The notes beneath the pieces were generated by a model, which saw only the letters and a list, made by a program, of their open reading frames with translations, was not told where the DNA came from and ran no database searches. From a virus, in the IMG/VR virus record IMGVR_UViG_3300025121_000002, positions 1-64,000 of that record: 64,000 bases of DNA; one strand, given 5' to 3'. Below are positions 2 through 21,830 of this stretch, one piece after another. Each line of letters begins with the position of its first letter. Within the stretch, counting starts at the first letter, position 1. The translations under genes and the position numbers were made by a program.

Positions 2-475
2 AATCAGACCGATGAGATTTGTTTAGCTGTTGTTAAACAAAACGGTAGAGCTTTGGAATATGTTAAACATCAGACAGAAGAAATATGTTTAGCTGCTGTT
101 AAAGAGAATGGTATGGCTTTACAATTTGTTAAACATCAAACAGAAGAAATATGTTTAGCTGCTGTTAAGCAAAATGGTTATGCTTTACTATATGTTAAGC
201 ATCAAACTGATGAATTATGTTTAGCTGCTGTCAATCAAAATGGTTATGCTTTGAAATATGTTGAATATCAAACACCAGAATTATGCTTAGTTGCTGTTAC
301 TAATTATGGTAATGCTTTGAAATATGTTAAGCATCAAACTGACGAATTATGCTTAGTTGCGATTAAAAAATATGAATGGTGTTTGTGTTATGTTAAACCA
401 GAGATTAAAACTAAAGATTTTTTATTACGATGTTTAGAAATTAATATAGCTTGTATAAAATATATGGAGATATAG
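2..475 (+). CDS. DUF4116-like tandem-repeat protein, paralog 1 (5' end outside window)
   Basis: Frame is open from the window edge and in frame with ORF 53..475. About 22-aa (66-nt) units ..QT[EDP]E[IL]CLAAV.QNGYAL.YVKH... Shared tail VKPEIKT..FLLRCLE.NIACIKYMEI. nt 1-162 equal 1440-1601 except one base. Confidence 0.8.
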   Translation, partial: NQTDEICLAVVKQNGRALEYVKHQTEEICLAAVKENGMALQFVKHQTEEICLAAVKQNGYALLYVKHQTDELCLAAVNQNGYALKYVEYQTPELCLVAVTNYGNALKYVKHQTDELCLVAIKKYEWCLCYVKPEIKTKDFLLRCLEINIACIKYMEI

Positions 476-477
476 AA

Positions 478-762
478 ATGAATAATATAATAGATTTTCC
501 TAAAATAAAACAATTACAAGAGGAACTAAATAAATTACTAGAAAGCAATCCAGAAAGAAGGGAATATCAAGAGTGGTTAAATAAACAACTAGATAAATAT
601 GGTGATGGTTCTACTCCAGAAAGTAGACATAATAGAATGTTATTTTTTAATGAATTACTAAAGGATAAAATAAGATCTTTAAACAAAGCTTTGTTAGATT
701 GTAAAGTAGATTTAGAAAAGATTAAGACTAAAATAAAGGATATAGAAAATGATAGTAAATAA
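478..762 (+). CDS. hypothetical protein (K/E-rich, coiled-coil-like)
   Basis: ATG 478 with GGAG about 8 nt upstream, right after the paralog-1 stop. The longer 451 start in the ORF track is a TTG inside the upstream gene. Confidence 0.55.
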   Translation: MNNIIDFPKIKQLQEELNKLLESNPERREYQEWLNKQLDKYGDGSTPESRHNRMLFFNELLKDKIRSLNKALLDCKVDLEKIKTKIKDIENDSK

Positions 763-3048: not shown

Positions 3049-3984
3049 ATGACACAATATGAAAAAGATTTAGCTGCTGTTAAAGAAAATGGTAGAGCTT
3101 TGAAATATATTGAACATCAAACACCAGAATTATGTTTAACTGCTGTTAATCAAAATGGTTATGCTTTGAAATATGTTGAATATCAAACAGAAGAAATATG
3201 TTTAGCCGCTGTTAAGGAAAATAGTTATGCTTTGAAATATGTTAAACATCAGACTCCAGAACTTTGTATGATTGCTGTTAAAGAAGACGGTCTTACTTTA
3301 TGTTTTGTTAAACAACAAACAGAAGAAATATGTTTAGCTGCTGTTAAACAGAATGGTTATGCTTTGGACTATGTTAAACATCAGACAGAAGAAATATACT
3401 TAGCCGCTGTTAAGCAAAATGGTTATGCTTTACAATTGGTTAAACAACAAACTGATGAAATATGTTTAGCTGCTGTTAATCAATATGGTTATGCTTTACA
3501 ATTGGTTAAACAACAAACTGATGAAATATGTTTAGCTGCTGTTAAACAAAATGGTTATGCTTTGAAATATGTTAAACATCAGACTCCAGAACTTTGTATG
3601 ATTGCTGTTAAAGAAGACGGTCTTACTTTATGTTTTGTTAAACAACAAACAGAAGAAATATATTTAGCTGCTGTTAAAGAGAATGGTATGGCTTTACAAT
3701 TTGTTAAACATCAAACAGAAGAAATATGTTTAGCTGCTGTTAAACAAGACGGTTATGCTTTGAAATATGTTAAACATCAAACAGAAGAAATTTGTTTAGC
3801 TGCTGTTAAACAAGACGGTTATGCTTTGGAATATGTTAAACATCAAACTGATGAAATATGTTTAGCTGCTGTTAATCAATATGGTAATGCTTTGAAATAT
3901 GTTAAACCAGAGATTAAAACGGAAGAATTTTTATTACGATGTTTAGAAACTAATATAGCTTGTATAAAATATATGGAGATATAG
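3049..3984 (+). CDS. DUF4116-like tandem-repeat protein, paralog 3 (about 13 repeats)
   Basis: Same N-terminus, repeat unit and tail as the other paralogs. Internal identical block of about 107 bp at 3224-3331 and 3554-3661 (offset 330 = 5 x 66 nt). Confidence 0.85.
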   Translation: MTQYEKDLAAVKENGRALKYIEHQTPELCLTAVNQNGYALKYVEYQTEEICLAAVKENSYALKYVKHQTPELCMIAVKEDGLTLCFVKQQTEEICLAAVKQNGYALDYVKHQTEEIYLAAVKQNGYALQLVKQQTDEICLAAVNQYGYALQLVKQQTDEICLAAVKQNGYALKYVKHQTPELCMIAVKEDGLTLCFVKQQTEEIYLAAVKENGMALQFVKHQTEEICLAAVKQDGYALKYVKHQTEEICLAAVKQDGYALEYVKHQTDEICLAAVNQYGNALKYVKPEIKTEEFLLRCLETNIACIKYMEI

Positions 3985-3985
3985 T

Positions 3986-4303
3986 ATGCGTTATATTATA
4001 GTTTTTATTATATTTATAATACTAATATCATTAGATACATCACAATCTAATTTAAAAAATCAATCTTGTTATCTAGGTTATGTTGTTAAACTAGAAAAAC
4101 AAGAAAAGAAGTATATACTAAATATAAAACTTAATAACGAAATCCAAGTATTAACCATTAATGAAAATAGTGATGTAAAATTCATTGATTTATTACAAAA
4201 TGTTACAGGTAAAAATGTTTTAATTGGTATAAAATATATGTATACTAATAATGAATATAGTGATAAACTTGAAAATGTTAAAATAATAAGGAGCAAGATA
4301 TGA
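3986..4303 (+). CDS. hypothetical protein with N-terminal signal/TM segment
   Basis: ATG 2 nt after the upstream stop. Hydrophobic N-terminus YIIVFIIFIILISL. Confidence 0.55.
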   Translation: MRYIIVFIIFIILISLDTSQSNLKNQSCYLGYVVKLEKQEKKYILNIKLNNEIQVLTINENSDVKFIDLLQNVTGKNVLIGIKYMYTNNEYSDKLENVKIIRSKI

Positions 4304-7513: not shown

Positions 7514-9547
7514 ATGGAAAAATTGTATTATAGATTGTGTAAAGGTATGAATTCGAAAGGTAAACTCTATGCTATAGAAGACAATATGTATAACCATATT
7601 GATGATTATGAAAAGGATTGGTACTTTTCAACATATTTATATACCGAAGAACAAAGAAGAGAAATAGAAACTGAAATAGAAGAAGTTGATAAACAAGGTA
7701 ACAAATATACAACAATTAGGGGTGTATCTGGTATTACTGATGTTAAAACAAATAAGATGTGTTTTGACTTCGATAGTCATGATAACCTCGAATTAGCTCG
7801 TAAAGACACTTTAAAGCTAGTTGACAAACTTATTGGTGAAGGTATACCTAAGAAGGATATACAGCTCTGTTATAGCGGTTCTAAAGGCTTTGGTGTCATT
7901 ATAGAGACAGACACATACTTTACTCCAGAAGAGATTAAACGCACAGCATCATTCTTGACTACGGATTCTGAAACTTTTGATAGTAAAATGTATAACGCTA
8001 GTAGGATTTTTAGATGTCCACTAACGAAACATCCAGTAAGTGGGTTGTATAAGTATCCTTTAACTTATACCGAATTGAAAGATAAACATGCTAATGAAAT
8101 AAAGGAATTAGCTAAAAGTAATGATATAGATCCTTTAGATTACCAAGACTATTTTGATGTTGTACAATTACCAGAAAAGATAGTACATTTAAAGAATATT
8201 AAACCTAAAGTTAGTGTTAGTGAAGTTGATAGATTAGAAATGGTAACGAAACTAGATGATATTAACTTTTCAGAAAGACCTAGTTTTTTAACACCAGCAA
8301 AATATATGTTACATTTAGGTCACTTTCAAGAAGGTCAAAGAAGTCATTCAGCTATGATACTATGTTCAACATATAAAAAAGCTGGATTTAGTAAAACAGA
8401 TTCTTATAGATTGCTTAAAAGTGTAATGGAGAGACAATCAGAAATTAATAACGTTGATAGATTTCCAGATGAAGAATTGTGGAATAACGTAGTTTCTGTT
8501 GTATATGGTAGTAACTGGAACGGTGGTACTTATAATAGTGATACTAGTGATTTGTTAGTTAAAACTAATTTATTACTTCCTGAATATTTAAGAGATACTA
8601 ATAAAGGTAGTGGATTGGTTGACAATGATTATATTTTTGGTCAATTTAAAAAATTCATGGATGAGATTGATAAAAATACACTAAGATTTGGTATTAAAGA
8701 TTTAGATAATAAGGTTAAATTACTAACAGGTACAACAGTTGGTGTTTTGGGTATACCATCATCAGGTAAAACCGCTTTAGGTATGAGTTTGTTGGCTAAT
8801 AATTCTAAAGTTGGTGAACAATCTATATTTTATAGCTTAGATATGTCAATAAACATTATAGCTTATAGACAAGTTCAAGCTATAACTGGTTGGGATGATG
8901 ATATGATTAAAAATACATATAAAACAAATCCTAAACTATTCTTTGATAAATACAACGAATCTAAAGAAACTTTATTTAAAAACGTTACTTATTGTTTTAG
9001 ACATGGAACAACACCAGCGGATATTCGCTCTGATATAGTTAATTATGAACAAAATACAGGAAAGAAGGTGAGGTTGGTGTTAATTGATTATCTTGAAAAT
9101 GTTCAAAGTGGTTATACAGACCCAACTATAGGTTCTGGAGTTGTTGCACAAAGTTTATCAAATATTGCAGCAGAACTAAACGTTTTGATTGTTATATTAC
9201 TTCAAACACAAAAAAATATACAACCAACAGAAGAAATAACATCAATGCGAAGCATTAAAGGGGCTTCAATAATTGAACAATCTCTTAGTGTTGCGATAGG
9301 TATAAGTCGTTTAGGACACTCATCAACTTATTCAGACTATGATACTAGTATGCAAGTTAATGTTATTAAGAATAGATTTGGTTCTCAATCTAGAGTTGAT
9401 GTTGGGTGGTCTGGTAATTATGCTAAAATTAGAGATCTTACACAAGAAGATAGGAAGAATATTTCTGAAATTATTAGATTGAAGAAAGAAGATGCTGAAG
9501 AAAGAGAAGAAGAAAGAAGACAAAATAGAGGAAACGGTTGGGGTTAA
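7514..9547 (+). CDS. bifunctional primase (AEP-like) / DnaB-RecA-type helicase
   Basis: N-terminal half: CFDFDS, SGSKGFG and RIFRCPLTKH motifs. C-terminal half: Walker A GIPSSGKT and Walker B LVLIDYLE. Confidence 0.7.
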   Translation: MEKLYYRLCKGMNSKGKLYAIEDNMYNHIDDYEKDWYFSTYLYTEEQRREIETEIEEVDKQGNKYTTIRGVSGITDVKTNKMCFDFDSHDNLELARKDTLKLVDKLIGEGIPKKDIQLCYSGSKGFGVIIETDTYFTPEEIKRTASFLTTDSETFDSKMYNASRIFRCPLTKHPVSGLYKYPLTYTELKDKHANEIKELAKSNDIDPLDYQDYFDVVQLPEKIVHLKNIKPKVSVSEVDRLEMVTKLDDINFSERPSFLTPAKYMLHLGHFQEGQRSHSAMILCSTYKKAGFSKTDSYRLLKSVMERQSEINNVDRFPDEELWNNVVSVVYGSNWNGGTYNSDTSDLLVKTNLLLPEYLRDTNKGSGLVDNDYIFGQFKKFMDEIDKNTLRFGIKDLDNKVKLLTGTTVGVLGIPSSGKTALGMSLLANNSKVGEQSIFYSLDMSINIIAYRQVQAITGWDDDMIKNTYKTNPKLFFDKYNESKETLFKNVTYCFRHGTTPADIRSDIVNYEQNTGKKVRLVLIDYLENVQSGYTDPTIGSGVVAQSLSNIAAELNVLIVILLQTQKNIQPTEEITSMRSIKGASIIEQSLSVAIGISRLGHSSTYSDYDTSMQVNVIKNRFGSQSRVDVGWSGNYAKIRDLTQEDRKNISEIIRLKKEDAEEREEERRQNRGNGWG

Positions 9548-16304: not shown

Positions 16305-18077
16305 ATGTTATACAAAATACTTAAAAGTGAATACCAAGACTTCCTAGACTATCTTAAAGACACTTCAATCAAATCATTTACAGAAAATTCAATACTTACG
16401 TTAGATAATAACGAATACATATTTGAAGACATATCACAGTTTAATGAATTAAAGAATCCTAAAAAGAAAGATAACTCACAATTAAATGATACAACTATGT
16501 ATAACAAGTGTCAATTAAATGACACAACTGATATAACTACGTCGATTGATAAAGATTTAATCTATGGTAAAGATCCAACTGAACGTATTGTTAATATATC
16601 TATCGATGATAATTTGGTATATATCTATAGAGAATTAGAAGATGGTACAATAGATACTCAGGTTAAACAAGCTAACTACTGGATTATTGGTGCATCTAAG
16701 CCTGCTGGTAAGTATATTACTTTAGAAGGAAGTCAACCATATAAATACTTAAAAGAATATTCAGACTATGAAGATTATAAAGTAGCTAGAATTAACTGTT
16801 ATAAGAAGAAGTCTGATGTATATTCTATATCTAATTTAGTTGAAAGTTACATGGTTAGAAATGGTTATACATATTTTAAGGGAATGAAGATTAGTGAAGT
16901 TTCTGTACTTTCGTTTGATATTGAAACTACAGGATTAGATCCAAAGCTTGATGATGCTAGAGTGTTACTGATTTCCAATACTTATAGGAATAACAAAGGT
17001 GTGATAACTAGGAAGTTGTTTAGTTTAGATGACTATGAGAATGATGCTGAGATGATCGAGGATTGGTGTTCTTGGGTGAGGAAAATGAATGCTAGTATAT
17101 TACTAGGTCACAATATTTTTTCTTTTGACCTACCTTATTTAAACCATCGTGGAGGAGGGTTAGAACTAGGAAGAGATGATAGTTACTTAACTTTCGAAGA
17201 AAGACCATCGAATCTAAGAGTTGATGGTAGTCAACAGTATACTTATTTTAAGGTACATATACAAGGAAGGGAATTGCTGGATACTTGGTTTTTATCGATA
17301 AAGTATGATATACAACGAAAGTATCCTAATTATAAACTAAAAGATATTATAGAATTTGAAGGATTAACACAAAAAGACAGACAGTTTTATGATGCTAGTA
17401 AAATAAAAGATAATTGGCATCTTCCAGAAGAAAGAGTTAAGATTAAGGCGTACTGTATAAGTGATAGTGACGATAGTTTAAAATTGTTCGATTTAATGGG
17501 ACCATCTTTTTTTTACTTTACAATTCACTGTCCTAAACCTTTTCAATTAATGTTGGAAAGCGCCTCTGGATCACAAATCAATAGTATGATGGTTAGAAGT
17601 TATTTACAAATTAATAAATCATTACCAAAAACCACAGAACTATCCCCAGTACAAGGTGCCATAAGTTTCGGACTGCCTAAATTTAGATGCAACGTGTTAA
17701 AATTAGATTTTTCTGGGCTTTACCCCTCAATAATACGAACTTGGCAATTATATGATCCAATAAAAGATCCAAATAGAAATTTCCTAAAGTTAACCGATTA
17801 TTTTGCTGAAGAAAGATTAAAACATAAGAAAATAGCAAAAGATACTGATGATAAATACTATAAAGATTTGGAACAAATGGAAAAACAGACAGCAAATTCA
17901 ATGTATGGTATGTTGAATTGTCAAGGATTATTATTCAATAATAGTTTAATCGCTGGTGAAATAACAAGAAATGCTAGAGAATTATTAAATAAAATAACAC
18001 TATTTTTTACATCAATTGATATAAATAAATGGAAGGAAAAATTAGATACTGAATCCGAAGAAGTTGAAAATGAGTAG
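16305..18077 (+). CDS. family B DNA polymerase, N-terminal fragment (3'-5' exonuclease plus palm motifs A and B)
   Basis: ExoI FDIETTGL, ExoII LLGHNIFSFDLPYL, ExoIII YCISDSDDS, motif A DFSGLYPSII, motif B K.TANSMYG. ORF ends at TAG 18075-18077, before motif C. Confidence 0.85.
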   Translation: MLYKILKSEYQDFLDYLKDTSIKSFTENSILTLDNNEYIFEDISQFNELKNPKKKDNSQLNDTTMYNKCQLNDTTDITTSIDKDLIYGKDPTERIVNISIDDNLVYIYRELEDGTIDTQVKQANYWIIGASKPAGKYITLEGSQPYKYLKEYSDYEDYKVARINCYKKKSDVYSISNLVESYMVRNGYTYFKGMKISEVSVLSFDIETTGLDPKLDDARVLLISNTYRNNKGVITRKLFSLDDYENDAEMIEDWCSWVRKMNASILLGHNIFSFDLPYLNHRGGGLELGRDDSYLTFEERPSNLRVDGSQQYTYFKVHIQGRELLDTWFLSIKYDIQRKYPNYKLKDIIEFEGLTQKDRQFYDASKIKDNWHLPEERVKIKAYCISDSDDSLKLFDLMGPSFFYFTIHCPKPFQLMLESASGSQINSMMVRSYLQINKSLPKTTELSPVQGAISFGLPKFRCNVLKLDFSGLYPSIIRTWQLYDPIKDPNRNFLKLTDYFAEERLKHKKIAKDTDDKYYKDLEQMEKQTANSMYGMLNCQGLLFNNSLIAGEITRNARELLNKITLFFTSIDINKWKEKLDTESEEVENE

Positions 18078-18109
18078 GTATTAATAATCAAATATATGGT
18101 GGTATCATT

Positions 18110-18823
18110 ATGATAAAAAAATATAATTTTGAATTAGTTAACTGTGATACTGATAGTATCAGTATTTGTAATTACGATCAAAGTAAAATAACAAAAGAAA
18201 CCCAAATATTAATGTTAGAAGAAATTAATAAACTATTACCAGGAAAAGTTATATTAGATCACGATGGTTATTTTCCTAAATTCCTAGTTATTAGATCAAA
18301 AAACTATGTGATGGTTAAAGAAGATGGTAAAATAAAATACAAAGGCAGCTCAATTTTAGACAAAAAAAGAGAGCTAAGTACCCGAAATCTCATGAATGAA
18401 ATCATTTCTTCCATCTTAGAAAACGATATTAACTACGACTTAATCAATGCTATCTATGAAAAATACATAATAGAAGCCAACAACGTTACTGACATCAATC
18501 AATGGGCTGTTAAACGTACATACACCAAAGCAATCATGACTAGTGAAAGAACTAATGAATCTAAGGTGCGTGATGCTCTTAAAGATGAAACAATGTCTGA
18601 GGGTGACAGGTTCTATATTTATACAAGTAAAGGTAATACTGTGAAACTAACAAAACATTGGGTTAAAGGTGACGAAGATTGCGAAAAGCTAACAAAACGC
18701 GTGTTTGATACGTTAAACATTTTTAAAGAAATACTTGACATGTCTAAATTTACGAAGTATCATTTAAAGACTAAACGAAAAGAATTGGAGAAATTACTAA
18801 ATGAAAATGCAACAATTTTATAA
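18110..18823 (+). CDS. family B DNA polymerase, C-terminal fragment (motif C plus thumb)
   Basis: Own GGTGG RBS and ATG, in a different frame from the N-terminal fragment. Motif C VNCDTDSI near the N-terminus. Confidence 0.8.
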   Translation: MIKKYNFELVNCDTDSISICNYDQSKITKETQILMLEEINKLLPGKVILDHDGYFPKFLVIRSKNYVMVKEDGKIKYKGSSILDKKRELSTRNLMNEIISSILENDINYDLINAIYEKYIIEANNVTDINQWAVKRTYTKAIMTSERTNESKVRDALKDETMSEGDRFYIYTSKGNTVKLTKHWVKGDEDCEKLTKRVFDTLNIFKEILDMSKFTKYHLKTKRKELEKLLNENATIL

Positions 18824-19996: not shown

Positions 19997-21181
19997 ATGT
20001 CAAGTTACACAGATAGTATGATTATTTTTATAAGGGAACTAAAAGATAAAGGAAATACTTGGGATGAAATAGCTGTTAAATTTAATAAAAAGTTTGGTGA
20101 AGAAGAAAGAAAGACAGCTAATGCTTTAAGAAAAATATACTCACGTTATTCTGATATAGACTTTACCGATGAAACTGTGATAAACAGTATTCAAAGTAAT
20201 GAAACTTCAAAAAAGAAGTCGTCTATTTTAGCTAAAGAAAATAGAGCTTTAGTTAATTATGTATCTGGTAGGAAGAATTTATTAGAAGAAATTAGAGAAA
20301 TGTTATCTAGTAGATCATTTACACAATATAAAGTACCAATATATAAACCAGATAAGTCTAAACGAAATATGACAATGGAAACATTATTAAGTGATTTGCA
20401 TGATGGTAAAAGAACACCAACATTTAATAATAGAATACTAAAAGAAAGATTACAAAAATATACTTCAGTTATTATTGGTGAAATAAATAGATATGAAAAA
20501 ATATATAATGTTGAACGTATTGTTGCACCTATTTTAGGTGATTTAATAGAAAATTCATATATGCATGGTATAGAATCTTTAGCTGGTTGTGAATATCAGA
20601 ATCCTGAACAAATTAGACATGTTACCCAATTATTATTTCAAGATTTTCTTATACCATTATCATTAACTGGAAGGCAGATAGTAGTTCCTTGTCTGACAGG
20701 AAATCATAGTAAATATTCCTTTAAAGATACATATATTGATCCAGGAAAAAATAATTTAAGTTGGATAATTTATAACATGTTAGAAATGCTATGTAAAGCA
20801 TCTAAATTAACAAATATTGAATTTATAATACCTGAAGGTATATATTGTGTCTATGAAATATATGGAGATCCTATATTATATGAACATAAAGTTGACAGTT
20901 ATCAACAAAAAAATGTAGAAGCTCATATACATGATAGATCTAAACAAGTCAAGAAGATGATAAAATTTGCTAGATTTGGTCATTTTCATGAATCATTATC
21001 TTATGGTAGGGGTAGAATTATATTTAATGCTTCATTTAGTGGTCTTGACTCTTATTCTGAGATAAAAGGATATTCATCTGAGCCAAGCCAGACCATAAAT
21101 TATTATATAGAAACAGATACTAGATGTGATAGCTATTACCACTCATTTATAGTGAATTTAAACAAATATGAAAAAGTGTAG
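19997..21181 (+). CDS. calcineurin-like metallophosphoesterase with N-terminal HTH-like domain
   Basis: Motifs in order: LSDLHDG (DxH), ILGDLIEN (GD), LTGNHSK (GNH), RFGHFHE (GHxH). Confidence 0.6.
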   Translation: MSSYTDSMIIFIRELKDKGNTWDEIAVKFNKKFGEEERKTANALRKIYSRYSDIDFTDETVINSIQSNETSKKKSSILAKENRALVNYVSGRKNLLEEIREMLSSRSFTQYKVPIYKPDKSKRNMTMETLLSDLHDGKRTPTFNNRILKERLQKYTSVIIGEINRYEKIYNVERIVAPILGDLIENSYMHGIESLAGCEYQNPEQIRHVTQLLFQDFLIPLSLTGRQIVVPCLTGNHSKYSFKDTYIDPGKNNLSWIIYNMLEMLCKASKLTNIEFIIPEGIYCVYEIYGDPILYEHKVDSYQQKNVEAHIHDRSKQVKKMIKFARFGHFHESLSYGRGRIIFNASFSGLDSYSEIKGYSSEPSQTINYYIETDTRCDSYYHSFIVNLNKYEKV

Positions 21182-21830
21182 TAAATGTAAAAAATTAAAA
21201 GAAAATTCTGATTTTACAAAAAAACAAAAAGATGGAGAATCGTTAAGATCTCAATGTAAAGAATGTGAACGAGAATATAGTAGATTATATGATACTAGAA
21301 CAAAAAACAAGGTATCAAAAAAATATGAAAAAACAATAAATGGTTTTATAATGAGAGTATATAGAAATATGAAATCTAGAGTTTTAGGTATTCAAAAACA
21401 AAAATTTCATTTATATGAAAATTTAGAACTTTTAGATAAGGATCTATTCTATGAATGGTCAAAAAACAATATAGATTTCTTAACATTATTTAAAAATTGG
21501 GAAAATAATAAATATGTAAGAAAATTAACACCTAGTATTGATAGAATAGATTCAAAAAAGGGATATGTTTTTAATAATATTAGGTGGGTTATTTTTAGTG
21601 ATAATTGTAAAAATATCCAAAGATTACAGTCAAATAACACAAGTTCATATCGTGGTGTATATTTTAATAAATCTAACAATAGATGGGTTTCTCAAATAAG
21701 TCACGATAAAAAACATTATTTTTTAGGATATTTTGAAAATATTGAAGATGCTATAGAAACATATAATAAAAAAGCAATTGAATTATTTGGAAAATTTGCT
21801 TTTATAAATATTAAAAAAATAGAAAATTAA
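21168..21830 (+). CDS. homing-endonuclease-like protein: Zn-finger N-terminus plus AP2 DNA-binding domain
   Basis: CSKCKK...CKECE N-terminus shared with the ORFs at 49089 and 59409. SIDRIDSKKGYVFNNIRWV. AP2 domain SYRGVYFNKSNNRWVSQISHDKKHYFLGYFENIEDAIETYNKKAIELFG. Confidence 0.7.
   Translation: MKKCSKCKKLKENSDFTKKQKDGESLRSQCKECEREYSRLYDTRTKNKVSKKYEKTINGFIMRVYRNMKSRVLGIQKQKFHLYENLELLDKDLFYEWSKNNIDFLTLFKNWENNKYVRKLTPSIDRIDSKKGYVFNNIRWVIFSDNCKNIQRLQSNNTSSYRGVYFNKSNNRWVSQISHDKKHYFLGYFENIEDAIETYNKKAIELFGKFAFINIKKIEN

What the first reader, a model, noticed from the sequence alone, without database searches (positions are those of the whole stretch)
16305..18823. Family B DNA polymerase split into two separately translated ORFs between motifs B and C
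ORF 16305..18077 carries ExoI-III, motif A (DFSGLYPSII) and motif B (K.TANSMYG), then stops at TAG. After a 32-nt gap, ORF 18110..18823 starts in another frame with its own GGTGG RBS and ATG. It begins 12 residues before motif C (VNCDTDSI). The break point (..LNKITLFFTS.. / ..YNFELVNCDTDS) is where a contiguous PolB would run from the fingers back into the palm. The gap is too short for an intron or intein, and stop read-through meets a TGA 12 codons later. The enzyme is therefore either a genuine two-subunit polymerase or a scar of a lost mobile element. Splits of this kind have been reported, from memory, in a few T4-like phages and in some archaea.
Basis: partly seen in the sequence, partly recalled or inferred. 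Interest (0 to 1): 0.65.

Follow-up and report, generated by a model that had tools for sequence, protein, structure and literature searches.

The report
Naturally split phage DNA polymerase B
This groundwater phage encodes its replicative family B DNA polymerase as two adjacent genes cut just before the catalytic DTD motif, a layout shared by more than half of a large family of uncultured phages, where the same cut often holds a homing endonuclease gene.

Summary
ORF1 (16305..18077, 590 aa) carries ExoI-III and polymerase motifs A and B and stops at TAG. After 32 nt, ORF2 (18110..18823, 237 aa) starts in another frame behind a GGTGG. It carries motif C (DTDS), KxY and the thumb.

It is not an error. 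Contigs from four metagenome runs are identical across the junction. 75 of the 119 nearest ORF1 homologues stop at the same place. In an exhaustive profile search, 72 of the 150 best ORF2 relatives are free-standing proteins of about 230 aa.

Split and contiguous forms are interleaved in trees of both halves. In relatives the gap runs from a 20-nt overlap to 1013 nt. It holds HNH genes of two groups, GIY-YIG homing endonuclease genes, or other small genes.

No intein, intron, slippery site or RNA structure is present.

Best reading: a real two-subunit PolB, translated from two cistrons and assembled non-covalently. The break is a homing-endonuclease landing site that is empty in this phage.

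Split PolBs are known from T4-like phages and from Methanobacteriales and Nanoarchaeum. This break point, just upstream of motif C, is different, as is the scale of recurrence. Assembly and activity are inferred, not shown.

The parts
16305..18077 (+). PolB large subunit gene (590 aa): variable N-terminal extension, N-terminal domain, 3'-5' exonuclease, first half of the palm (motif A), fingers (motif B) and the palm helix
   Evidence: ORF listed. Pfam PF03104 and PF00136. phrog_262 DNA polymerase, 1e-30. 1762 homologues at E<=1e-10.
16917..16925 (+). ExoI, D205-I-E207 (FDIET)
   Evidence: Invariant columns D205, I206, E207 in the alignment of ORF1+ORF2 with 38 contiguous homologues.
17706..17729 (+). 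Polymerase motif A, D468-FSGLYPS-475
   Evidence: Invariant D468, L472, Y473, P474, S475; regular-expression hit.
17883..17909 (+). Polymerase motif B, K527-QTANSMYG-535
   Evidence: Invariant K527, N531, S532, G535.
18009..18074 (+). C-terminal tail of ORF1 (T569-E590, TSIDINKWKEKLDTESEEVENE). It has no counterpart in the short contiguous forms. It is acidic and contains the conserved Trp (W576).
   Evidence: Junction listing: split forms end 'WATGKxxxxW...' followed by an acidic or EEKTK tail, while contiguous forms run 'WAExKGYxIVNxDTDS'. Predicted helical with pLDDT 63-71 in the concatenated model.
18075..18077 (+). TAG stop of ORF1
   Evidence: Unchanged in contigs of four runs.
18078..18109 (+). 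32-nt intercistronic spacer, with no ORF and no predicted structure. This is the empty form of the site that holds homing endonuclease genes in relatives.
   Evidence: RNA fold z-score +0.46. No Rfam match. Spacers in relatives run from -20 to +1013 nt.
18098..18102 (+). Shine-Dalgarno-like GGTGG, 7 nt upstream of the ORF2 ATG
   Evidence: An SD-like tetramer occurs in the same position in 15 of 22 split loci against a background of 16% (binomial p 5e-8).
18110..18823 (+). PolB small subunit gene (237 aa): second half of the palm (motif C, KxY) and the thumb
   Evidence: 64 homologues, 62 of them 206-285 aa. Profile match to KOD PolB 530-635. AlphaFold pLDDT 91.5 and Foldseek match to the C-terminal ~230 residues of KOD/9N/Pfu PolB, E 2e-10, TM 0.73.
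18146..18157 (+). Polymerase motif C, D13-T-D-S16
   Evidence: D13, T14, D15 invariant in 34 ORF2 relatives and in contiguous forms.
18299..18307 (+). KxY motif, K64-N-Y66 (primer-terminus contact in PolBs, from general knowledge)
   Evidence: Invariant K64, N65, Y66.

Best explanation
The window is part of a tailed phage genome from groundwater. Its replicative family B DNA polymerase is encoded by two adjacent cistrons.

The 590-aa product carries the exonuclease, motif A, the fingers with motif B and the palm helix. The 237-aa product carries the beta-strands with the catalytic DTD (motif C), the KxY motif and the thumb.

Each cistron is translated from its own start. ORF2 uses the GGTGG and ATG 32 nt after the ORF1 stop. 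The two chains then assemble non-covalently into one polymerase, as shown experimentally for other natural and engineered split PolBs. These steps are inferred, not shown.

The break lies between the palm helix and the motif C strand (KOD residue ~528). In this phage family it is a recurrent landing site for free-standing homing endonuclease genes. The window carries the endonuclease-free form. It either lost the element or never received one after the gene had been split.

The extra C-terminal tail of ORF1 (WATGK..W plus an acidic run in the family) may help docking. It may also be left over from a time when it encoded the ribosome-binding site of an overlapping ORF2. Both ideas are speculative.
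For: SHOWN.
(1) Both ORFs, the stop, the frame change and the SD are present. They are unchanged in another assembly and in contigs of four runs.
(2) All catalytic motifs are intact and invariant in both halves.
(3) 75 of the 119 nearest ORF1 homologues (44-67% identity) end 47-74 residues after motif B and lack DTD; 44 are contiguous.
(4) 62 of 64 ORF2 homologues are 206-285 aa and start 4-15 residues before DTD.
(5) In an exhaustive HMM search of 1.84 billion cluster representatives, the 150 best hits split into 72 complete free-standing proteins, 61 contiguous or contiguous fragments, and 17 others that are mostly short with non-ATG starts or truncated.
(6) In 22 loci the two halves are adjacent, in the same order, and broken at the same place. 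The gap ranges from -20 to +1013 nt.
(7) 15 of 22 have an SD-like motif before ORF2 (p 5e-8).
(8) Gaps contain HNH genes in L003, L054, L044 and L028, and GIY-YIG/NUMOD3 genes in L053, L061 and L068.
(9) The sister pair L068 (split, GIY-YIG in the gap) and L069 (contiguous) is 78% identical in the N part.
(10) ORF1+ORF2 modelled as one chain folds as a complete PolB: pLDDT 87, pTM 0.80, TM 0.72 to 9N/KOD over ~800 columns.

PRECEDENT. Split gp43A/B of phage 25 co-purify and are active (PMC2988022). Pfu split in the fingers reconstitutes full activity from separate fragments (PMC3061061).
Against: There is no direct evidence of two polypeptides, of complex formation or of activity. No RNA run holds the sequence.

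The single-chain AlphaFold model says nothing about the affinity of separate chains, and the tail is only moderately confident (pLDDT 63-71).

The 32-nt spacer is too short to show any remnant of a mobile element, so 'scar' versus 'never occupied' cannot be decided for this phage.

The trees are unbootstrapped neighbour-joining trees of deeply diverged sequences, so the number of independent split or fusion events is only a rough lower bound.
Confidence: 0.85

Rival explanations
1. Pseudogene or sequencing/assembly error: a contiguous polB broken by a recent mutation or an indel artefact, so ORF2 is not made.
For: A stop followed by a frame change is what an indel would give. One relative (L049) does seem broken at a different, non-conserved place, so accidental breaks occur.
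Against: The junction is identical in another assembly and in contigs of four runs at word depths of 30 to 222. The same break point occurs in 75 diverged ORF1 homologues and 72 or more free-standing ORF2 clusters. Catalytic residues are invariant in both halves. ORF2 has its own SD and ATG. The tail of ORF1 is a conserved feature of split forms.
Confidence: 0.02
2. Recoding makes one polypeptide: stop read-through, programmed frameshift, or ribosomal bypass of the gap as in T4 gene 60. That would mean take-off at GAG 18072-74 before the UAG and landing at GAA 18131-33.
For: A sense codon directly followed by UAG, then a coding gap of about 56 nt before a matching Glu codon in the ORF2 frame, superficially recalls the gene 60 bypass. 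That element is linked to a mobile endonuclease (bioRxiv 10.1101/2022.08.31.505936, listed, abstract only).
Against: Read-through meets TGA TAA after 11 more codons. The ORF2 frame is closed by a TGA that overlaps the last sense codon, and there is no slippery heptamer. The region shows no stable structure (z +0.46). Landing at E8 would drop residues 1-7, yet N6 and F7 are nearly invariant in free-standing relatives. In relatives the gap holds whole genes or is an overlap, which no single recoding device could cover.
Confidence: 0.03
3. The halves are joined after translation or transcription: a split intein (protein trans-splicing) or a group I/II intron.
For: Split inteins are known in PolB genes: Nanoarchaeum, and the PolB16 atypically split intein with an N-part of only 15 aa (PMC10189870). 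Introns with endonuclease genes are common in phage polymerase genes (general knowledge).
Against: ORF2 aligns to PolB from its third residue and is PolB fold throughout, so there is no room for a C-intein of 35 aa or more. The ORF1 tail does not sit at a splice junction: the 'N-C' before DTD is part of the normal strand and reads NA, NG or NC in contiguous forms. The extra sequence relative to contiguous forms is about 105 nt, too short for an intron. There is no Rfam hit in the window or in 12 relatives' loci.
Confidence: 0.02
4. The split is ancient and was inherited vertically. The endonuclease genes are later squatters in a harmless intergenic gap, and contiguous relatives arose by repeated re-fusion.
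For: The start of the tail (WATGK..W) is shared by split forms whatever sits in the gap (HNH, GIY-YIG or nothing). It is also shared by contiguous forms that carry a ~30-aa insert at this point (WATGHTLK...). For phage 25 and 44RR the literature also considers invasion of an already split gene (PMC2988022).
Against: Thirty-three contiguous homologues have the canonical 52-residue spacing between motifs B and C with no trace of tail or head. Repeated re-fusion would need repeated precise deletions, unless it happened by recombination with unsplit phages. Split and contiguous sisters are as close as 78%.
Confidence: 0.3

Closest known systems
Split gp43 (43A/43B) DNA polymerase of T4-related Aeromonas and Acinetobacter phages (25, 31, 44RR, 65, 133; Petrov, Karam and co-workers)
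   Same: It is a phage PolB encoded by two adjacent cistrons in the original order. The intercistronic sequence varies from 2 bp to 3 kb, and one case holds a GIY-YIG (seg-like) endonuclease gene. The two products co-purify and are active (PMC2988022; PMC3061061; PMC2677866).
   Different: The T4-type break is in the fingertip, between motifs A and B. Here it is after motif B and the palm helix, 12 residues before DTD. The phage lineage is unrelated: the best cultured-phage match is a Salinibacter phage at 29%. The split is far more frequent here, at more than half of the sampled family.
Split PolB of Methanobacteriales (M. thermautotrophicus PolB1/PolB2, Kelman et al. 1999)
   Same: It is a two-subunit PolB cut in the palm domain. 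From memory, the subunit sizes are 586 + 223 aa, close to 590 + 237 aa here. It is active only as a complex. An origin from a mobile element (erratic intein excision) has been proposed (PMC4104785).
   Different: The genes are about 85 kb apart (PMC3061061). That paper places the break about 83 residues after Pfu 467/468. By my arithmetic this is just past DTD and about 20 residues downstream of the break here. I could not align the Mth sequences directly. No endonuclease gene is associated with it.
Split-intein PolBs: Nanoarchaeum equitans Pol and the metagenomic PolB16 OarG intein
   Same: The PolB is encoded in two pieces cut close to motif C, and the cut comes from a mobile element (PMC4104785; PMC10189870).
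   Different: Those pieces carry intein halves and are ligated by trans-splicing. PolB16 is cut directly after DTD (N-extein ...SGDTD). Here there is no intein sequence, and the break is upstream of DTD.
'Fractured genes' and endonuclease-fragmented genes: Dassa et al. 2009, and Aeh1 nrdA split by mobE (Crona et al. 2011)
   Same: [quoted passage not shown] The element supplies the stop and the start. In Aeh1 NrdA the new tails are essential for activity (PMC2677866; PMC3045599). The ORF1 tail here could play the same role.
   Different: Dassa's class has split-intein halves flanking the endonuclease gene, and none are present here. In the window the endonuclease gene is absent. No role for the tail has been tested.

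Membership tests
Family B DNA polymerase (PolB), proofreading type | ExoI, ExoII and ExoIII motifs with their catalytic Asp/Glu residues | tested here: met
   D205/E207, N270/D275 and Y383/D387 are invariant in the 39-sequence alignment. Pfam DNA_pol_B_exo1 scores 9e-14.
Family B DNA polymerase (PolB), proofreading type | Polymerase motifs A (DxxxLYPS), B (KxxxNSxYG) and C (DTDS) | tested here: met
   Motifs A and B are in ORF1 and motif C is in ORF2. All are invariant.
Family B DNA polymerase (PolB), proofreading type | PolB fold (N-terminal domain, exonuclease, palm, fingers, thumb) | tested here: met
   The concatenated model (pLDDT 87) matches 9N/KOD/Pfu PolB with TM 0.72 over ~800 columns. 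ORF2 alone matches the C-terminal palm and thumb.
Family B DNA polymerase (PolB), proofreading type | DNA polymerase and 3'-5' exonuclease activity | not testable with these tools
   This needs expression and an assay.
Bicistronic gp43A/gp43B of T4-related phages | Two adjacent cistrons in the order of the contiguous gene, with a variable intercistronic sequence | tested here: met
Bicistronic gp43A/gp43B of T4-related phages | Break in the fingertip, between motifs A and B | tested here: not met
   The break is 64 residues after the start of motif B and corresponds to KOD residue ~528. The T4-type position is taken from PMC3061061.
Bicistronic gp43A/gp43B of T4-related phages | Membership of the T4-like phage lineage, with orthology to gp43 | tested here: not met
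   tblastn against 50,697 phage records finds only Salinibacter and Nostoc/Anabaena phage PolBs at 25-29% identity, and no T4-like phage.
Split-intein PolB (N. equitans, PolB16) | Intein N- and C-halves at the ends of the two fragments | tested here: not met
   ORF2 aligns to PolB from residue 3. The ORF1 tail is 22 aa with no intein block. No Hint/intein Pfam hit was found.
Split-intein PolB (N. equitans, PolB16) | Cut at the pol-c site, directly after DTD | tested here: not met
   DTD is residues 13-15 of ORF2, downstream of the cut. The PolB16 N-extein ends ...SGDTD.
Methanobacteriales split PolB | The two genes are unlinked, and the cut is in the palm about 83 residues after Pfu 467/468 | tested here: not met
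   The genes here are adjacent. The cut is about 60 residues after the Pfu 467/468 equivalent, by KOD numbering set against PMC3061061. I did not align the Mth sequences directly.
Fractured genes sensu Dassa et al. 2009 | [quoted passage not shown] | tested here: inconclusive
   It is absent in the window (32-nt gap). It is present in at least 7 relatives: L003, L054, L044, L028, L053, L061 and L068.
Fractured genes sensu Dassa et al. 2009 | Split-intein halves flanking the endonuclease gene | tested here: not met
   In all 22 split loci ORF2 starts 5-10 residues before DTD, and the ORF1 tails are 5-25 residues long.
Programmed recoding (frameshift, or gene 60-type bypass) | A slippery site or matched take-off and landing codons, together with a stimulatory RNA structure | tested here: not met
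   There is no slippery heptamer, and the ORF2 frame is closed up to 18073. No structure is predicted beyond shuffled controls.

The most novel reading that the evidence does not exclude
The split allele itself may behave as a mobile unit. That unit would be the ORF1 tail, the gap with or without an endonuclease gene, and the first ~55 codons of ORF2. Homing endonucleases of at least three groups would cut unsplit or empty polB alleles near the highly conserved motif C sequence. Repair would then copy the split junction and the 5' end of ORF2 into the recipient. This would explain two things: why split and contiguous genes are interleaved in the tree, and why ORF2 heads are more alike among split forms than the rest of the protein predicts. 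The tail and head would then be assembly elements supplied by the mobile DNA, as in Aeh1 NrdA.
Probability: 0.3. Interest if true: 0.65.

Novelty: new variant of a known kind. Interest (0 to 1): 0.5.

Why it matters
Natural split sites show where a polymerase can be cut and still assemble. The known natural cuts are the T4-type fingertip, the N/palm boundary of RM378, and the motif C/intein site of archaea.

This adds a fourth position, one that puts both motif C aspartates on a small palm-thumb subunit. It comes with hundreds of diverged natural examples and matched unsplit relatives. That is a ready-made data set for studying the subunit interface, for engineering split polymerases, and for asking how an essential gene survives fragmentation by selfish endonuclease genes.

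It also matters for annotation. The ~230-aa proteins get no Pfam hit ('-' for most entries) and several are labelled hypothetical. Gene-content surveys will therefore miss that these phages have a complete PolB.

Tried and rejected
- DNA search of the phage collection found no near match, so there is no cultured relative.
- The search for related loci with the broad ORF2 alignment failed because no stretch was conserved enough. A narrower ORF2 alignment worked.
- Pfam on ORF2 gave nothing, so a profile-to-PDB search and a fold search were needed.
- I wanted to place the Methanothermobacter break exactly. A homologue search with a KOD fragment returned only 5 fragments. The Kelman 1999, Petrov 2010 and Gorbalenya 1998 papers are not held. 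The comparison therefore rests on one sentence in PMC3061061.
- The genome-contig scan gave a single 2-kb scaffold of a Bacteroidetes MAG. That is too weak to name a host.
- No metatranscriptome run holds the sequence.
- The 12-mer AAATATATGGWG before ORF2 looked like a recurring start signal. Its excess comes from three copies of a ~90-nt repeat elsewhere, so I dropped it.
- I considered that the whole ORF2 moves as a cassette. I rejected this because the trees of the N and C parts share sister pairs and both interleave the two states. Only the first ~55 residues show excess similarity among split forms.
- Group I intron in the 521-nt gap of L028: rejected. There is no Rfam hit, and the gap encodes an intact HNH reading frame.
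Full report
**What is in the window.**
ORF1 (16305..18077, 590 aa) ends at TAG. ORF2 (18110..18823, 237 aa) starts 32 nt later in a different frame. GGTGG lies at 18098-18102, 7 nt before the ATG. The ORF2 frame is closed by a TGA (18071-73) that overlaps the last sense codon of ORF1. Reading through the TAG meets TGA TAA after 11 more codons. There is no slippery heptamer, and the junction RNA folds no better than shuffled sequence (z +0.46).

The window has 29% G+C and belongs to a tailed phage. It encodes a primase-helicase (7514..9547), an exonuclease (19997..21181), a portal protein and a large terminase subunit. All three stop codons are used as stops: TAA 53, TGA 12, TAG 11.

**Both ORFs are parts of one PolB.**
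Pfam and PHROGs place ORF1 in family B polymerases. ORF2 has no Pfam hit. However, a profile of its relatives matches KOD/9N/Tgo PolB residues 530-635. Its AlphaFold model (pLDDT 91.5) superposes on the last ~230 residues of these enzymes, which are the second half of the palm and the thumb (TM 0.73).

ORF1 and ORF2 modelled as a single chain, with 38 contiguous homologues as the alignment, give a complete PolB. The model has pLDDT 87 and pTM 0.80, and reaches TM 0.72 against 9N/KOD over ~800 columns. ExoI-III, motifs A, B and C, and KxY are all invariant.

The cut corresponds to KOD residue ~528. That is between the palm helix that follows the fingers and the strand that carries D540/D542.

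**It is not an artefact.**
A 2.9-kb contig from a groundwater metagenome assembly is 99.97% identical and has the same layout. About twenty groundwater and soil runs hold the sequence. Logan contigs of four runs, at word depths of 30 to 222, show no difference across 17800-18400. These are contigs, not raw reads, and I did not check that the runs are independent.

**The split is a family trait.**
- Of 64 ORF2 homologues (33-62% identity), 62 are proteins of 206-285 aa that begin 4-15 residues before DTD.
- Of the 119 nearest ORF1 homologues (44-67% identity), 75 stop 47-74 residues after motif B and lack DTD. The other 44 are contiguous.
- An exhaustive HMM search of 1.84 billion cluster representatives found 774 relatives of ORF2. 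Among the 150 best, 72 are complete free-standing proteins and 61 are contiguous or fragments of contiguous genes. The remaining 17 are mostly short proteins with non-ATG starts or truncated ones.
- In 22 loci where both halves could be read, they are adjacent, in the same order, and cut at the same place.
- One further locus (L049) is broken elsewhere and looks like an accident.
- 15 of the 22 have an SD-like tetramer in front of ORF2, against a background of 16% (p 5e-8).

**What lies in the gap elsewhere.**
The gap varies widely between loci.
- Overlaps of 8-20 nt in nine loci (L041 and L042 share one junction).
- Short gaps of 32 nt (the window), 80 nt (its closest relative, L021) and 126 nt.
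- Long gaps of 210-1013 nt in the rest.

The long gaps encode the following.
- HNH endonucleases of one group in L003 and L054 (phrog_1035/3118, 1e-13 to 5e-17).
- HNH endonucleases of a second group in L044 and L028 (phrog_3377, 3e-10; 36% identical to each other).
- GIY-YIG/NUMOD3 homing endonucleases in L053, L061 and L068 (PF01541; phrog_314, 2e-35).
- Three unrelated small genes in L050.
- Small ORFs of unknown function in L002, L027 and L031.

No Rfam family, and hence no recognisable intron, is present in 12 such loci or in the window.

**History.**
Neighbour-joining trees of the N part (120 sequences) and of both parts (45 loci) interleave split and contiguous forms. The median identity is the same within and between the two states. 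Several nearest-neighbour pairs differ in state, at 69-78% identity against a family median of 55%. These trees have no support values, so the number of events cannot be counted reliably.

Contiguous genes come in two kinds. Thirty-three have the canonical 52 residues between motifs B and C. Eleven have a ~30-aa insert at exactly this point (WATGHTLK...EGKGF). Split forms share the first residues of that insert (WATGK..W) before an acidic or EEKTK tail.

In the sister pair L068 (split, GIY-YIG in the gap) and L069 (contiguous), the N parts are 78% identical. The first ~60 residues of the C part are only 36-40% identical, rising to 60-70% further on.

Across 45 loci, the first 55 residues of the C part are 7.5 points more alike among split forms than between split and contiguous forms. 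Other regions differ by at most 2.5 points. A label-permutation test gives p about 1e-4, without correction for phylogeny.

This could reflect co-conversion during homing. It could equally reflect a shared constraint on a free N-terminus. I cannot separate the two.

**Mechanism proposed.**
Two cistrons are translated separately and the products assemble non-covalently. This part is inferred. It rests on conservation, intact motifs, the start signals, and experimental precedent. Phage 25 gp43A/B co-purify and are active (PMC2988022). Pfu split in the fingers regains full activity from separate fragments (PMC3061061).

The break point is a landing site for free-standing homing endonuclease genes, and the window holds the empty form. 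Whether the endonucleases created the split or moved into an existing gap is open. The same question was raised for phages 25 and 44RR.

**Comparison with known cases.**
- T4-type gp43 splits lie in the fingertip, upstream of motif B.
- The Mth PolB split is placed about 83 residues after Pfu 467/468, which by my arithmetic is just past DTD, and its genes are 85 kb apart.
- The Nanoarchaeum and PolB16 genes carry split inteins. PolB16 is cut directly after DTD; I recall the same site for Nanoarchaeum.

Here the cut is 12 residues before DTD, the genes are adjacent, and there is no intein. It is therefore a further natural split site in a known class of split PolBs. It occurs in an uncultured phage family whose best cultured match is a Salinibacter phage PolB at 29% identity. 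I found no paper describing this family or this site in the held library. That is not proof that none exists.

**Limits.**
There is no expression, proteomic or biochemical evidence. No metatranscriptome holds the sequence. The host is unknown; the only genome hit is a 2-kb scaffold in a Bacteroidetes MAG. The exact Mth break was not checked by alignment.

Noticed in passing
window 388-478, 1827-1917, 3897-3986: Three near-identical copies of a ~90-nt direct repeat lie at the 3' ends of three + strand ORFs. They include those ending at 475 and 3984, plus one ending near 1914. Each copy is followed at once by the next ATG. The ORF at 3049..3984 matches PHROGs of unknown function in several repeated stretches. 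These may be paralogous genes with a shared C-terminus, or a recombination or regulatory cassette.
   Followed up: partly
window 21168-21830 (+): An HNH endonuclease gene (220 aa; phrog_99, 4e-24) overlaps the 3' end of the exonuclease gene 19997..21181. A 62-residue stretch is 47% identical to the HNH that sits inside the polB gap of relative L044. This phage therefore carries a related endonuclease gene 2.3 kb downstream of its empty polB gap.
   Followed up: partly
window 16305-16550 (ORF1 residues 1-80): ORF1 has an N-terminal extension of about 80 residues that many homologues of ~505 aa lack. It is predicted with low confidence (pLDDT 29-69). It contains a near-repeat, 'QLNDTT...QLNDTT'.
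   Followed up: no
window 18045-18052 and 18146-18153: The 8-mer GATACTGA occurs in the ORF1 tail (encoding L-D-T-E) and again at motif C (D-T-D) 101 nt downstream. It may be chance. It could also be a remnant of a short duplication of the target at the junction.
   Followed up: no
L050 2935-4019 (relative's polB gap): One relative has three genes in the gap instead of an endonuclease gene: a 61-aa CxxC zinc-ribbon protein, a 120-aa protein, and a 183-aa DUF6939 protein. The gap therefore also accumulates other cargo.
   Followed up: partly
L001-L003, L069 (relatives): Synteny is conserved around polB in this phage family: ERF recombinase, DnaB-type helicase, a few small ORFs, then polB. Nucleotide-metabolism genes lie nearby (dCMP deaminase, dUTPase, thioredoxin, IMPDH), as does a heptosyltransferase-like Glyco_transf_9 gene.
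   Followed up: no
L049 (relative, IMGVR_UViG_3300015360_001071): This polB is broken at a different, non-conserved position upstream of motif B's downstream region, with a 52-nt overlap. It is probably a frameshift error or a pseudogene. It serves as a contrast to the conserved break.
   Followed up: no
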